DNA of 64,000 bases, taken from Candidatus Poribacteria bacterium (lineage in GTDB: Bacteria; Poribacteria; WGA-4E; PCPOR2b). Made by a program: the position numbers and the translations under genes. The notes beneath the pieces were generated by a model. That model saw only the letters and a list, made by a program, of their open reading frames with translations. It was not told the origin of the DNA and did no database searches. Within the stretch, counting starts at the first letter, position 1. The number at the start of each line of letters is the position of its first letter. Below are positions 34,067-61,225 of this stretch, piece by piece. The DNA lies in the NCBI GenBank assembly GCA_965116925.1, contig OZ220744.1:4960001-5024000 (forward strand), read 5' to 3'.

Positions 34067-34691
34067 GAAGCCGTACATAGAACTTCTTGACAAGCCGATC
34101 CTTTCGCATACGATCGGCGTATTTGATCAAAGTACTGTTGTCGATGCTATCTTTGTGATTGTTGATGAAATGGATTTTGATGCTTGCCGATCTGCTGTCA
34201 TCGAACCGTACGACTTCCAAAAGGTTGCTGGGCTAGTCCCCGGTGGCAAAACGCGCCAAGATTCTGTCTTTAACGGCTTGAAAGTGCTGCCGGAGGATAC
34301 GGATTTCGTTGTCGTGCATGATGGAGTTCGTCCTTTTGTGACCGATGAAGTGATTTTTACCTGTCTCGAAGCGGCAGCAGATTGGGGCGCCGCAGTCGCC
34401 GCAGTCCTTGTCAAAGATACCATCAAAATCACCGATAAGGACGGATTTGTCGTCGAGACACCGGATCGGAGCCAACTTTGGGCGGTACAGACACCGCAGG
34501 TATTTCGGAGGGATGTATTGATCGAAGCCCACCGACATGCCCAGCGCAAACAGATCCAGTTGACTGATGACGCAGCGCTAGTCGAGCAGCTGGGGCTTAA
34601 AGTAAAGTGTGTCATGGGTAGCTATGGCAATCTGAAGATCACGACGCCGGAAGATCTGATTATTGCTGAAGCGCTGATGAGTGAGGGTTGA
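33996..34691 (+). CDS. ispD: 2-C-methyl-D-erythritol 4-phosphate cytidylyltransferase
   Basis: IPAAGRGSRMG, GG.TRQDSV, HDGVRP, QTPQ, TDDA and KITTPEDL motifs; the stop codon lies inside the adjacent IS end. Confidence 0.95.
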   Translation: MNQRTCVLIPAAGRGSRMGHHRTRKPYIELLDKPILSHTIGVFDQSTVVDAIFVIVDEMDFDACRSAVIEPYDFQKVAGLVPGGKTRQDSVFNGLKVLPEDTDFVVVHDGVRPFVTDEVIFTCLEAAADWGAAVAAVLVKDTIKITDKDGFVVETPDRSQLWAVQTPQVFRRDVLIEAHRHAQRKQIQLTDDAALVEQLGLKVKCVMGSYGNLKITTPEDLIIAEALMSEG

Positions 34692-34850
34692 CATACTCCC
34701 AAACCTAAAGGCTTGGGCTTCTCACCCGTTCCGTTAGGTGTGGAATTGCGCTATCAACAAGGACAGCTATCCGAAGATAGTCTTATGTCCTCTCCTTCGG
34801 GGGTAGATGCCCCTACCCTAAAGATATTCATTGCAGCGTTACGGTCTCTG
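34670..34850 (-). ncRNA. predicted omegaRNA/reRNA of element 1 (scaffold ends at 34688; guide CCCUCACUCAUCAGCG... comes from the flank)
   Basis: Known TnpB architecture (the RNA overlaps the tnpB 3' end and the right end); hairpins are visible; the 5' boundary is approximate. Confidence 0.6.
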
Positions 34851-35890
34851 TCATGCACTGTGCCACAATCGTTGCATTGCCATTGTCTATCACGCAGATT
34901 CAACGTTTCATTGGTAGTGCCACAAGTTGAACAAGTTTTACTGGAGGGATACCACTTGTCTATGAACTTGATTTTAACGCCTTTTCTCTTGGCGATATAC
35001 ACCAGCTTCTTGACGAAATCGGCAAAGCCTAAGTCAGACACTTTACGTCCCCAAAGGGATTTCATGCCTTGTAGATTCAAGTCCTCAAGCCGTATCTCGT
35101 CGTATATGTCAGTCAGTTCATGGGCTAACTTCCAGTGGAAATCCTCACGTTGGCGTTCAATCTTGCGGTGCTTCCGTGCCAAGTCAAGCCGTGCACGTTC
35201 ACGATTGTTTGATTTCTGTTTAGTCCGTGAATGTTTACGATTGGCACGTTTGATAGCATTGATACTACGTTTGAAAAACTGTGGTGAGTCTATATCATGT
35301 CCATTATGACCGGTGAGATACCGTTTGAGACCGAAATCGAAGCCTGCGATTTTACCCGTCATGGCTCGATTCAAGTCAGGTTCTACATGGTCAGTTAAGA
35401 CACAGATATAGATATCTCCAACTTTATCCCGTTTGATAGTGCAGCGTTTCGGATTGCCAAACACATCACGGGATTTGAAATAGGAGTAGATACGTTTTCC
35501 TATCTTGATGCGATTGCCCGGCAGCAGTTGCCAACCTGCCTGAAGCAATGTGAAGGATTTATACTTGCGACGGGGCTTGAAACGAGGTCTGCCCCATCTC
35601 TTGCCTGAAGCACGCGCTGCAAACATGGCACGGTAGCCTTTGTCAATCCGTGCTGCTACGTCTTGTATCGCTTGACTGGGGAGTTGATTCCAATGGGCAA
35701 ATCGGTGGGTTCGCTTCAGTTTGGAGATATGGTTTATCAACCTGAACTTGCTGATATATTTGCCATAGATAGCGTAGTAGCGACGCTGAAGGGCAACACA
35801 GTGATTCCAGACGTGAGCATGACCATCTATCGTCTTATGCAACTCACGATTGCCGTGATTGGAATACAACTTGAACTTATAAGTTTTCAT
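34754..35890 (-). CDS. tnpB: RNA-guided endonuclease TnpB
   Basis: KTYKFKLY N-terminus; RuvC-I GFDFG, RuvC-II LEDL, CxxC..CxxC zinc finger, RuvC-III DRDRNAA, all intact. Confidence 0.95.
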   Translation of the reverse strand: MKTYKFKLYSNHGNRELHKTIDGHAHVWNHCVALQRRYYAIYGKYISKFRLINHISKLKRTHRFAHWNQLPSQAIQDVAARIDKGYRAMFAARASGKRWGRPRFKPRRKYKSFTLLQAGWQLLPGNRIKIGKRIYSYFKSRDVFGNPKRCTIKRDKVGDIYICVLTDHVEPDLNRAMTGKIAGFDFGLKRYLTGHNGHDIDSPQFFKRSINAIKRANRKHSRTKQKSNNRERARLDLARKHRKIERQREDFHWKLAHELTDIYDEIRLEDLNLQGMKSLWGRKVSDLGFADFVKKLVYIAKRKGVKIKFIDKWYPSSKTCSTCGTTNETLNLRDRQWQCNDCGTVHDRDRNAAMNIFRVGASTPEGEDIRLSSDSCPC

Positions 35891-35906
35891 CGGAGACTAG
35901 CTTTCT

Positions 35907-35979
35907 GGCTTTCATTTCCTGTGTGAAGGAATGTGGGAAACACCACCGGGCGGTGGCGTCATACCTTCCCACGAAAGCC
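35907..35979 (-). ncRNA. structured 5' leader RNA upstream of tnpB (copy 1)
   Basis: Stems GGCTTTC/GAAAGCC, GTGGGAA/TTCCCAC, ACGCCACC/GGTGGTGT and TTCCT/AGGAA; covaries with the copy at 59696. Confidence 0.7.
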
Positions 35980-35985
35980 GAGACA

Positions 35986-36014
35986 AGTATACCACTTTTG
36001 ACCTACAAAATCAA
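35986..36014 (-). promoter_or_regulatory. sigma70 promoter of tnpB (element 1)
   Basis: TTGATT-17 nt-TATACT with an extended -10 TG; 6 nt upstream of the leader stem. Confidence 0.7.
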
Positions 36015-36094
36015 TGAGAAATCACGCTAAAGCGTGTGTATCCCAAATCTAAAGATTGGGGTTTTACACCTAAAGGATTTTTTGATAAACTACC

Positions 36095-59480: not shown

Positions 59481-59500
59481 AACGCTGTCCTCCTATCAAT

Positions 59501-59570
59501 ATGCCTTGTAGTTGCCTGATTTATCAGGCGTTGTTTTTCCTAATGCCTTGTAGTTGCCTGATTTATCAGG
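59501..59570 (+). repeat. two direct copies of a GTAG-type REP
   Basis: ATGCCTTGTAGTTGCCTGATTTATCAGG at 59501 and 59543. Confidence 0.8.
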
Positions 59571-59660
59571 TCAGGATTTTTGATGATAACTTGTTTCATC
59601 AACTTTTCGCAGTGGAGACCCCGTTCTTTAGAGCGGGGAGGAAACTGCGCTCCTTTTTCG

Positions 59661-59689
59661 TTGAAAAGTTGTGTGAAATATGGTACAGT
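59661..59689 (+). promoter_or_regulatory. sigma70 promoter of tnpB (element 2)
   Basis: TTGAAA-17 nt-TACAGT with an extended -10 TG; 6 nt upstream of the leader stem. Confidence 0.7.
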
Positions 59690-59695
59690 TCTTAT

Positions 59696-59771
59696 GGCTT
59701 TCGTAGGGGATTTCTACCATCCCGAACCCTTCGGGATGTCCCCTACACCTCGTAGAAAAGGAATGAAAGCC
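59696..59771 (+). ncRNA. structured 5' leader RNA upstream of tnpB (copy 2)
   Basis: Stems GGCTTTC/GAAAGCC, GTAGGGGA/TCCCCTAC, CATCCCGAA/TTCGGGATG and CCT/AGG; TTTCTAC/GTAGAAA pseudoknot. Confidence 0.7.
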
Positions 59772-59786
59772 AGAAAGCTAACCCCT

Positions 59787-61013
59787 ATGAAAAAGAGTTA
59801 TGAATATCGCGCCTATCCTACGACGAAACAGCGACATACTTTTTTGGTTTGGCTTGCCTTGTTGCGCAATCTCTACAATCAAGCGTTAGCGTGGCGGATA
59901 GAGGCTTACCAGCAAAATAACGATTCTGTCAAATGGACGACCCAAGCCAACGCCTTACCTGACTTGAAAGCAGCCTCCAAGGCTTATGCAGGACTTCACG
60001 CGGATGTTCTCCAAGATGCGATGCGCCGTTTGGATAAAGCGTACAAAGCATTCTTCCGCCGTGCCAAGAACGGGGCGGCACCGGGCTTCCCCCGCTTCAA
60101 AGGCGAAGGGCGATACCGGTCAATGACCTTTAGCCACCTATCCAAGCATCTGGTCCGGAGTGTACATCGTAAGTTTGCCAAAGTCGTTGTTCCGAAAATA
60201 GGACACCTCAAGATCCGTTATCACCGCCCCTTAGCCGATGGCAACATCAAGAATCTGACGGTCATCAAGCGAGCCAGCGGTTGGTATGTAACTATCTGCG
60301 TCGAAGTGCCAGATCCTATAGAAGTCCCTGTCCACACAACGATCGGCGTAGACGTGGGACTTAACTCGTTTGCCGTAGATTCGGATGGCGAACATATCCC
60401 AAACCCCCGCCATTATCGTCAGTCTGAAAAACGCCTTGGTAAACATCAACGCGTATTGTCTCGCCGCAAAAAGGGGAGCCGCCGCCGGGCAAAACAACGT
60501 GAGATTGTCGCCCGTTGCCATGAACGGATAGCGAATCAGCGCAAGGATTTCCAGTTCAAGGCAGCCCATCGTATCATTCAACGGTGCGACGAGGTTGCTG
60601 TAGAGAATCTGACCATCACCAATATGTTGAAGAACCACTACCTCGCCAAGAGTATATCTGACGCGGGCTGGGGTAGCTTTCGATTGAAACTGCAAAGCAA
60701 GGCTGCAAGTGCCGGCAAGCAGTTCACCAAAGTGAAGCCTCACCATACCAGTCAGAAATGCTCCGGTTGCAATGAAGTTGTGCCTAAACAGTTGTCGGAT
60801 CGTCTCCATGATTGTCCCCATTGTGGGTTGGTCCTCAATAGAGACCATAACGCTGCGATAAATATCAAAAAGGCTGCTGTAGCCTTGCGTGAAGGTGCGT
60901 CGGTTGCAAACGACCCCGAAATCCCCTGTCCGGGGACAGAAGCGCGAAACTTTGTAAGACCCGTTGGACGGACGTTTCAAACAAGCACCGTCCCTTCAGG
61001 GCGGGGTAACTGA
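59787..61013 (+). CDS. tnpB: RNA-guided endonuclease TnpB
   Basis: MKKSYEYRAYPT start; GFPRFK; RuvC GVDVG, VENL and NRDHNAA; CSGC..CPHC zinc finger. Confidence 0.95.
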   Translation: MKKSYEYRAYPTTKQRHTFLVWLALLRNLYNQALAWRIEAYQQNNDSVKWTTQANALPDLKAASKAYAGLHADVLQDAMRRLDKAYKAFFRRAKNGAAPGFPRFKGEGRYRSMTFSHLSKHLVRSVHRKFAKVVVPKIGHLKIRYHRPLADGNIKNLTVIKRASGWYVTICVEVPDPIEVPVHTTIGVDVGLNSFAVDSDGEHIPNPRHYRQSEKRLGKHQRVLSRRKKGSRRRAKQREIVARCHERIANQRKDFQFKAAHRIIQRCDEVAVENLTITNMLKNHYLAKSISDAGWGSFRLKLQSKAASAGKQFTKVKPHHTSQKCSGCNEVVPKQLSDRLHDCPHCGLVLNRDHNAAINIKKAAVALREGASVANDPEIPCPGTEARNFVRPVGRTFQTSTVPSGRGN

Positions 61014-61032
61014 CCATGAATTCCTTTCCGGC
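60870..61032 (+). ncRNA. predicted omegaRNA/reRNA of element 2 (guide CAUGAAUUCCUUUCCG... after 61014)
   Basis: Hairpins (aaggct..agcctt, gtcg..cgac, tcccc..gggga) in the tnpB 3' end plus the right-end hairpin; boundaries approximate. Confidence 0.6.
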
Positions 61033-61063
61033 GAATCAGAAAATTGCTGTAAACGGCTCCGAC

Positions 61064-61149
61064 GCCCGATAAATCGGGCAACTACAGGTCACGATGCCTG
61101 ATGAATCAGGCAACTACAAATTCCGATGCCCGATAAATCGGGCAACAAC
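61064..61149 (-). repeat. three inverted copies of the same REP at a 32-nt period
   Basis: GCCYGATRAATCRGGCAACWAC at 61064, 61096 and 61128; reverse complement of the 59508 REP. Confidence 0.8.
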
Positions 61150-61225
61150 AATATAAATTTTCGCGTTGCTGTCGAATTTAGTGTGGTAGATTCAGCATCG
61201 CCGCGTTTGAGATGTTGTCACACTG

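What the first reader, a model, noticed from the sequence alone, without database searches (positions are those of the whole stretch)
35891..36014. Covarying ~75-nt pseudoknotted RNA leader shared by two divergent TnpB elements (copy 1; copy 2 at 59696-59771)
Seen: the two TnpB proteins and their IS ends differ clearly, yet both upstream regions have the same layout: TTGA..-17 nt-extended -10 promoter, exactly 6 nt, then GGCTTTC ... GAAAGCC AGAAAGCTA, 6-7 nt, ATG. Internal helices keep their pairing while the sequence changes: P2 GTGGGAA/TTCCCAC vs GTAGGGGA/TCCCCTAC; P3 ACGCCACC/GGTGGTGT vs CATCCCGAA/TTCGGGATG; P4 TTCCT/AGGAA vs CCT/AGG. The P2-P3 bulge is complementary to the P4 loop (GTATGA/TCACAC 5 of 6; TTTCTAC/GTAGAAA 7 of 7). 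Known: the TnpB omegaRNA lies at the 3' end, so this 5' RNA is something else, and it is far too short for an IStron group I intron. Inference: an undescribed cis-regulatory RNA, ribozyme or second RNA component of TnpB systems. I cannot confirm its absence from Rfam.
Basis: partly seen in the sequence, partly recalled or inferred. Interest (0 to 1): 0.82.

Follow-up and report, generated by a model that had tools for sequence, protein, structure and literature searches.

The report
Sliding-strand RNA leader of TnpB transposons
A small knotted RNA, not found in the RNA catalogue searched, starts the messages of many RNA-guided nuclease (TnpB) genes and some host genes in sponge-dwelling Poribacteria, and its first few letters can pair either inside the fold or over the ribosome-binding site, so it probably works as an on/off gate for protein production.

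Summary
Confirmed and extended. Both copies are real (copy 1 is on the minus strand) and lie between a sigma-70-like promoter and tnpB in TnpB-only IS200/IS605 elements. Across 133 distinct leaders the helices covary, G-U pairs far outnumber A-C on the mRNA strand, and the bulge-loop pseudoknot holds (82 of 100 combinations give at least 5 bp; 5.8% when mismatched). No Rfam match.

The conserved tail is a second partner for the 5' strand. That strand pairs either with a proximal copy (closing the fold) or a distal copy at the ribosome-binding site or start codon. Both copies track the 5' strand through very different sequences, and the two states are near-equal in predicted energy.

The leader is not TnpB-specific: it also precedes a helicase and a sigma-54 activator and follows sigma-54-like promoters, and some tnpB copies lack it. 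No invariant loop bases were found, so a ribozyme is unlikely.

Best reading (0.6): translational on/off gate, trigger unknown; nothing is shown experimentally. Found only in Poribacteria in my searches. The scan had already reported this leader in other Poribacteria genomes.

The parts
34688..36084 (-). TnpB-only IS200/IS605 (IS1341-type) element 1, inserted between ispD and ispF
   Evidence: Ends defined by where sister copies diverge. RNA-library contigs have loose ends at 34688 and 36085 and joints across the element. Flanking genes by Pfam.
36085..36089 (-). Transposon-adjacent motif TTTAT at the left end of element 1
   Evidence: TTAT/TTTAT precedes the left end in sister copies; role inferred from IS200/IS605 knowledge
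36042..36060 (-). Left-end hairpin of element 1
   Evidence: Sequence; a near-identical hairpin lies at the right end
35986..36014 (-). Predicted sigma-70-type promoter: -35 TTGATT (36009-36014), 17 nt, extended -10 TATACT (35986-35991)
   Evidence: Sequence. The best -10 hexamer lies 6 nt before P1 in 72 of 109 tnpB-type leaders. Start site not mapped.
35899..35979 (-). Leader RNA copy 1: three-way junction (P1, P2-bulge-P3, P4) with bulge-loop pseudoknot and two partners for the 5' strand
35973..35979 (-). 5' strand (anti-RBS) of copy 1, predicted to start at +1
35959..35964 (-). Pseudoknot strand in the P2/P3 bulge (copy 1; 5 of 6 pairs)
35921..35926 (-). Pseudoknot strand in the P4 loop (copy 1)
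35907..35913 (-). X1, proximal partner of the 5' strand (closes the junction; predicted ON state)
   Evidence: 96.7% of cells paired in alignment A5
35899..35905 (-). X2, distal partner of the 5' strand, overlapping the predicted Shine-Dalgarno AGAAAG (predicted OFF state)
   Evidence: 92.4% of cells paired in A5; 16S tail; spacing
34754..35890 (-). tnpB, 378 aa
   Evidence: Pfam OrfB_IS605 and Cas12f1-like_TNB
59600..61014 (+). TnpB-only IS200/IS605 element 2 (adjacent motif TTCAT at 59595-59599; right end TGAC)
   Evidence: Ends defined from sister copies
59661..59689 (+). Predicted promoter: -35 TTGAAA (59661-59666), extended -10 TACAGT (59684-59689)
   Evidence: not mapped
59696..59779 (+). 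Leader RNA copy 2: 5' strand 59696-59702, bulge 59711-59717, loop strand 59752-59758, X1 59765-59771, X2 59773-59779
59787..61013 (+). tnpB, 408 aa
   Evidence: Pfam OrfB_IS605, Cas12f1-like_TNB, HTH_OrfB_IS605; start codon

Best explanation
A portable promoter-plus-leader cassette that gates translation. The transcript starts at, or within a base of, a 7-10-nt strand that can pair with two direct-repeat partners. Pairing with the proximal copy X1 closes a three-way junction braced by a 6-7-bp bulge-loop kiss and leaves the ribosome-binding site free (ON). Pairing with the distal copy X2, which lies on the Shine-Dalgarno sequence or start codon, hides the site (OFF). The balance is set by the stability of the junction/pseudoknot fold. 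The fold, the strand and both pairings are shown by covariation. The start site, the ON/OFF assignment and the effect on translation are inferred. The trigger is unknown: I favour a physical or host-protein input (Mg2+/temperature-dependent tertiary folding, an RNA chaperone or helicase, or the 30S subunit itself) over a metabolite, because loop bases are not conserved. TnpB elements would use it to limit a DNA-cutting nuclease behind a strong promoter; a paired 5' end in both states may also stabilise the omega-RNA precursor.
For: Fold, 133 distinct leaders: G-U versus A-C is 42/6 in P1, 34/8 in P2 and 72/7 in P3 on the mRNA strand; 23 of 26 pairs have two-sided changes, 0 of 500 shuffles reach this, and slid controls are far lower. 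Pseudoknot: 82 of 100 bulge/loop combinations give at least 5 Watson-Crick pairs, against 5.8% for cross-pairings; 57 different bulge sequences. Two partners: 96.7% (X1) and 92.4% (X2) of cells paired in A5. Among 40 leaders with other 5'-strand sequences, the weaker of two sites has at least 7 pairs in 30, against 8.4% in cross controls. At the variable position 2, X2 alone matches in 9 leaders and X1 alone in 6, so X2 is not just a copy of X1. X2 stays with the start codon when a spacer intervenes (L128, L138) and contains the ATG in L093, L231, L233, L234. The 16S tail ends CCUCCUUUCU. AGAAAG peaks 8-12 nt before ATG genome-wide, and the distal GAAAG is 8-11 nt from the start codon in 92 of 109 leaders. 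Median energy difference between states is 0.1 kcal/mol for 109 tnpB-type leaders. Intermediates on one simple path lie about 7-11 kcal/mol above the X1 state, pseudoknot not modelled. Precedent for translational throttling of an IS200-family gene by 5'UTR structure: PMC4513863 (passages).
Against: No experiment and no mapped 5' end; all laid RNA runs were contigs. In the two window copies X1 is favoured by 2.8 kcal/mol (predicted X2 pairing 1-2%). Most sigma-54-type copies keep X2 but have no regular start codon next to it: ATG in L098, CTG or none in others. AGAAAG without a following G is only weakly enriched genome-wide, and that count can include these leaders. In the more distant family, X2 is often a poor Shine-Dalgarno match to this genome's 16S tail (duplex -1.5 to -2.5 kcal/mol in several). 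With a crude -10 picker only 26 of 53 leaders showed two perfect sites for the first 6 nt; 10 showed one and 17 none. ORF-less elements keep the fold, which translation control alone does not explain. Related sequences are not independent, and no R-scape test was available.
Confidence: 0.6

Rival explanations
1. Mainly a 5'-end protective or processivity module: a compact knot at +1 shields the mRNA/omega-RNA precursor from 5'-end-dependent decay, or modifies RNA polymerase, and X2 is a back-up partner or spacer.
For: P1 begins at the predicted +1 in most sigma-70-type copies. The fold is kept in ORF-less IS derivatives and behind sigma-54-like promoters without an adjacent ORF. The core is sequence-independent.
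Against: It does not explain why X2 tracks the start codon and covaries with the 5' strand independently of X1. It is not exclusive with the best explanation.
Confidence: 0.17
2. A TnpB-specific element: an autoregulatory binding site or a second RNA of the TnpB ribonucleoprotein.
For: 25 of 30 tnpB-like loci in the genome, 69 of 79 loci of close relatives and 20 of 28 loci from another family couple it to tnpB.
Against: Shared by TnpB clades about 30% identical (tree). Absent from three full-length copies and from 6 of 6 non-Poribacteria relatives. Present before a UvrD helicase and a sigma-54 activator.
Confidence: 0.08
3. The bulge-loop pairing is intermolecular, as in phi29 pRNA, so transcripts of the same element recognise each other, and dimerisation shifts the switch (copy-number sensing with an element-specific code).
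For: Same topology as pRNA helices A/C/D/E with CE and D loops (PMC5066667, passages). The kissing sequence is the most variable helix: 14 versions on one P3 sequence.
Against: Kissing-strand identity (0.50) is about that of fourfold-degenerate sites (0.56) at the same distance, so diversifying selection is not shown. The fixed P2 and P4 lengths also suit an intramolecular contact (inference). No RF00044 match in the genome.
Confidence: 0.06
4. A self-cleaving or ligating ribozyme.
For: Compact pseudoknotted fold; branched kissing loops occur in the pistol and twister ribozymes (PMC8457670, passages).
Against: No invariant junction nucleotides; no Rfam ribozyme hit; hammerhead and HDV cores (recalled) absent.
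Confidence: 0.03
5. A DNA-level feature: a single-strand structure needed for TnpA transposition, or inverted repeats kept perfect by template switching and slippage rather than selection.
For: It also folds well as DNA. Slippage does occur: three copies of the repeat in L224, and the same mismatch in both copies in L012.
Against: G-U bias to the mRNA strand; position directly behind promoters; leaderless elements sit at three different sites; non-IS copies exist.
Confidence: 0.04

Closest known systems
IS200 tnpA 5'UTR stem-loop (Salmonella; PMC4513863, passages read)
   Same: [quoted passage not shown]
   Different: A single stem-loop acting with an antisense RNA and Hfq on the transposase gene. 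Here: a three-way junction with pseudoknot and two alternative partners, in front of tnpB, also used by host genes.
Translational ON riboswitches (general architecture, recalled)
   Same: A closing helix P1 competes with an anti-RBS:RBS helix; pseudoknotted three-way junction
   Different: No conserved ligand-pocket nucleotides found; the same strand serves as both P1 and anti-RBS through a direct repeat; no metabolic gene context
phi29 prohead RNA (PMC5066667, passages) and branched-kissing-loop RNAs (PMC8457670, passages)
   Same: Closing helix, three-way junction, one arm with a bulge loop and terminal hairpin, one short hairpin whose loop pairs with the bulge
   Different: pRNA is a free phage RNA with intermolecular loop pairing and a packaging role. 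There is no RF00044 match, and this RNA is an mRNA leader.
TnpB omega-RNA / sotRNA and IscB HEARO RNA (PMC10055086, passages)
   Same: Structured RNA inside an IS200/IS605 element
   Different: [quoted passage not shown] This one is internal to the left end, fixed between promoter and start codon, and has no flank-derived segment.

Membership tests
Any Rfam 15 family | Covariance-model score at or near the gathering threshold over the leader | tested here: not met
TnpB omega-RNA | Located at the right end with a guide from flanking DNA | tested here: not met
   The leader lies 105 nt (copy 1) and 96 nt (copy 2) inside the left end and is identical between copies at different sites
IStron group I intron | Group I core of several hundred nt between the left end and the ORF | tested here: not met
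   Only about 190 nt between left end and ATG; no intron hit
Small self-cleaving ribozymes (hammerhead, HDV-like, twister, pistol) | Invariant catalytic-core nucleotides | tested here: not met
   Consensus of 57 members; no Rfam hit; cores compared from recall
Small self-cleaving ribozymes (hammerhead, HDV-like, twister, pistol) | Site-specific self-cleavage in vitro | not testable with these tools
   needs a bench assay
Metabolite riboswitch | Expression platform with mutually exclusive helices over the RBS | tested here: met
   By covariation and energy only
Metabolite riboswitch | Highly conserved unpaired nucleotides forming a pocket | tested here: not met
   only helix-closing pairs and one tetraloop C reach 90%
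Metabolite riboswitch | Ligand-dependent structural change | not testable with these tools
   needs in-line probing
phi29 pRNA (RF00044) | Three-way junction with complementary bulge and hairpin loops | tested here: met
phi29 pRNA (RF00044) | Model match and phage packaging context | tested here: not met
   chromosomal IS and gene-leader context
Poribacteria-1 motif of Weinberg et al. 2017 (name recalled, no call shows it) | Same consensus structure | tested here: inconclusive
   Not in the main text of PMC5737381; supplement unreadable; 0 papers hold the term. If the motif is in Rfam, the negative scans exclude it.
IS1341-type (TnpB-only IS200/IS605) host elements | tnpB alone between end hairpins, inserted 3' of a short T-rich motif | tested here: met

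The most novel reading that the evidence does not exclude
A new general class of RNA switch in which a 5'-terminal strand slides between two direct repeats under the control of a branched-kissing-loop fold. It would sense an unrecognised signal or its own sibling transcripts through the variable kissing code, and would be the first dedicated control device described for TnpB production, traded as a cassette among unrelated TnpB clades and host regulons.
Probability: 0.2. Interest if true: 0.85.

Novelty: new variant of a known kind. Interest (0 to 1): 0.62.

Why it matters
My searches (listings and abstracts only) turned up no paper on how cells limit production of TnpB, the RNA-guided ancestor of Cas12. 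This leader gives a concrete, directly testable device with dozens of natural compensatory variants. It is also an undescribed structured RNA family in an uncultured sponge-symbiont phylum, with an unusual one-strand, two-partner design that could be useful as a compact tunable translation gate or 5'-end stabiliser. Its reach is limited by being found so far only in Poribacteria and by the lack of any functional data.

Tried and rejected
Outside Poribacteria nothing was found. Viral pattern scans gave 18 loci, 0 and 0; the metagenome scan gave 22 loci. The model was run on all 22 metagenome loci and 11 of the 18 viral ones and gave at most 23.5 bits, matching the ends only. The other 7 viral loci were near-duplicates, inspected by folding. 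Distant blastn of two leaders against plasmids gave only short chance hits. These are exact-pattern or sequence searches and would miss variants with other P1 sequences, so this is not proof of absence.

RNA runs: all four laid were contigs and may contain DNA. Low depth over the leader is uninformative, and no start site or strand could be read.

Faster-than-neutral evolution of the kissing sequence: inconclusive. Bulge migration offers no lower path than opening P1 in three of four cases. A triple helix with X2 was rejected because X1-X2 spacing varies from 7 to over 20 nt. tRNA mimicry, hammerhead type III and HDV-like folds were compared from recall and rejected on missing cores or topology.

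Paper searches (listings and abstracts) showed no description of this leader. Subscription journals, the supplement of PMC5737381 and bioRxiv supplements could not be seen and may hold such a motif.

Full report
1. Observation. Both structures are in the sequence. Copy 1 reads on the minus strand from 35979 into tnpB 34754-35890; copy 2 reads on the plus strand from 59696 into tnpB 59787-61013. Each folds far better than shuffles (z -5.5 and -5.9). The two proteins are 30% identical. The hosts are TnpB-only IS200/IS605 elements: 34688-36084(-), inserted between ispD and ispF, and 59600-61014(+). Close relatives of the first TnpB all come from records titled Poribacteria. Rfam has no matching family.

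2. Family and covariation. A motif search found the layout in 21 of 41 genomes, including 17 of 19 others of the same genus. Model R1 hit 38 of 151 phylum genomes. The broader model R2 hit 20 of 41 genomes of a more distant family and gave 36 hits at E below 1e-4 in this genome. In 133 distinct leaders G-U pairs outnumber A-C mismatches on the mRNA strand (P1 42/6, P2 34/8, P3 72/7), which points to RNA on that strand. P4 is short and was partly out of register in the alignment. On alignment A4, 23 of 26 pairs show two-sided changes, 0 of 500 shuffles match, and slid controls fall from 94% to 44-50% paired. The alignment was fitted to the model and the sequences are related, so these figures overstate significance. 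The pseudoknot was not part of the model. Of 127 leaders with a bulge of 4 nt or more, 100 distinct bulge/loop combinations remained; 82 give at least 5 contiguous Watson-Crick pairs, against 5.8% for a bulge paired with another leader's loop, over 57 different bulge sequences. This is the branched kissing loop motif (PMC8457670, passages), in the same topology as phi29 pRNA (PMC5066667, passages); there is no pRNA model match.

3. The tail after P1 repeats the P1 3' strand. The 5' strand pairs with the proximal copy X1 in 96.7% of cells and with the distal copy X2 in 92.4%. At the variable second position, 55 leaders have G/C/C and 32 have T/A/A (5' strand/X1/X2); X2 alone matches in 9 and X1 alone in 6. 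The two types are interspersed on the TnpB tree. In the distant family and in non-tnpB copies the 5' strand has wholly different sequences, and two partners are still present: the weaker site has at least 7 pairs in 30 of 40 leaders against 8.4% in cross controls. X1 stays next to the fold and X2 stays next to the start codon. It follows the ATG past a 28-nt insertion (L128, L138) and contains the ATG in L093, L231, L233 and L234, with a purine-rich SD between the copies. In this genome the 16S rRNA ends in CCUCCUUUCU. AGAAAG peaks 8-12 nt upstream of ATG among 2403 long ORFs, and the distal GAAAG lies 8-11 nt from the start codon in 92 of 109 leaders. The two states differ by a median of 0.1 kcal/mol across those 109, though the window copies favour X1 by 2.8.

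4. Context. In this genome 25 of 30 tnpB-like loci carry the leader; three full-length copies lack both promoter and leader, and two loci are 5' fragments. Of 79 loci of close relatives, 69 have a hit upstream. Of the other ten, four have a decayed leader, two a partial one, two none, and two are truncated (nine inspected; L177 is cut by its contig end). Of 28 loci from the distant family, 20 are followed by a TnpB ORF. Of the 36 hits in this genome, 25 are at tnpB loci, 4 at IS remnants or a decayed start, and 7 elsewhere. Those seven are: before a UvrD helicase, before a PAS/sigma-54 activator, four behind a -24/-12-like promoter (consensus recalled), and one without a clear ORF. ORF-less IS derivatives keep promoter, fold and right-end RNA. 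Across 57 members of all types, only helix-closing pairs and one tetraloop C reach 90% conservation. Nothing was found outside Poribacteria, with weak searches.

5. Mechanism. Shown by sequence comparison: fold, strand, pseudoknot, two mutually exclusive partners, and X2 at the translation start in tnpB copies. Inferred: +1 at the 5' strand (the best -10 box is 6 nt upstream in 72 of 109; a crude picker gave two perfect sites in only 26 of 53); X1 pairing means ON and X2 pairing means OFF; and the junction plus pseudoknot sets the balance. Unknown: the trigger. Against this reading, sigma-54-type copies mostly lack a regular start codon next to X2, and ORF-less elements keep the fold, so a 5'-protective role may contribute or dominate. 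A ribozyme or a TnpB-specific RNA fit poorly. An intermolecular, pRNA-like kiss is not excluded, but the kissing sequence evolves only about as fast as neutral sites. RNA-library contigs could not test expression.

6. Known systems and novelty. It works like the SD-sequestering 5'UTR of IS200 tnpA (PMC4513863, passages) and like the expression platform of a translational riboswitch, but it fails membership in every family tested. It is distinct from the right-end omega-RNA (PMC10055086, passages). The paper searches showed no description (listings only). A recalled 'Poribacteria-1' motif could not be checked: it is not in the main text of PMC5737381 and the supplement was unreadable. The scan's earlier AI notes report the same leader in other Poribacteria genomes; these are not independent evidence. 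The two-partner covariation, its link to the start codon and the pRNA-like topology were tested here.

7. Verdict. A real, conserved, uncatalogued leader RNA, most likely a translational gate (0.6). New variant of a known kind; interest 0.62.

Noticed in passing
window 34688-36084: Element 1 splits the ispD-ispF gene pair on the opposite strand; contigs from RNA libraries include joints that skip it, consistent with empty-site alleles.
   Followed up: partly
G000:C1 1037390(-), 4090995(+), 5977551(+): Full-length tnpB copies of the element-2 clade that lack promoter and leader; the left-end hairpin runs almost directly into the ATG.
   Followed up: partly
G000:C1 4280372(+), 5589029(+), 2585413(-): ORF-less IS200/IS605 derivatives of about 500 bp with promoter, leader fold, an omega-RNA-like region and a right end.
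   Followed up: partly
G000:C1 319823-322282: A leader copy precedes a PAS/sigma-54 activator gene, and a second copy follows it behind a sigma-54-like promoter, ahead of an ORF with a signal-peptide-like start.
   Followed up: partly
L107:1501-1589(-); G000:C1 338629(+): A TATAAT-like hexamer on the opposite strand just 3' of some non-tnpB leaders could drive an antisense RNA; it may instead be a decayed start region.
   Followed up: no
L080:1501-1640(+); L085: Leader followed by a conserved 14-codon ORF, not tnpB, in a mobile-element-like neighbourhood in two genera.
   Followed up: no
window 59500-59575 and 61060-61150: Short palindromic repeats flank element 2, and similar ones are inserted inside other elements and leaders.
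   Followed up: no
window 59560-59659: Weak sub-threshold Rfam HgcC match (21.9 bits, E 0.021) over the left-end hairpin of element 2.
   Followed up: no
G000:C1 328972, 701269, 5955107, 6178252, 6296312: Five Y1_Tnp (PF01797) matches that could supply TnpA in trans; not sorted into IS200 TnpA versus REP-associated enzymes.
   Followed up: no
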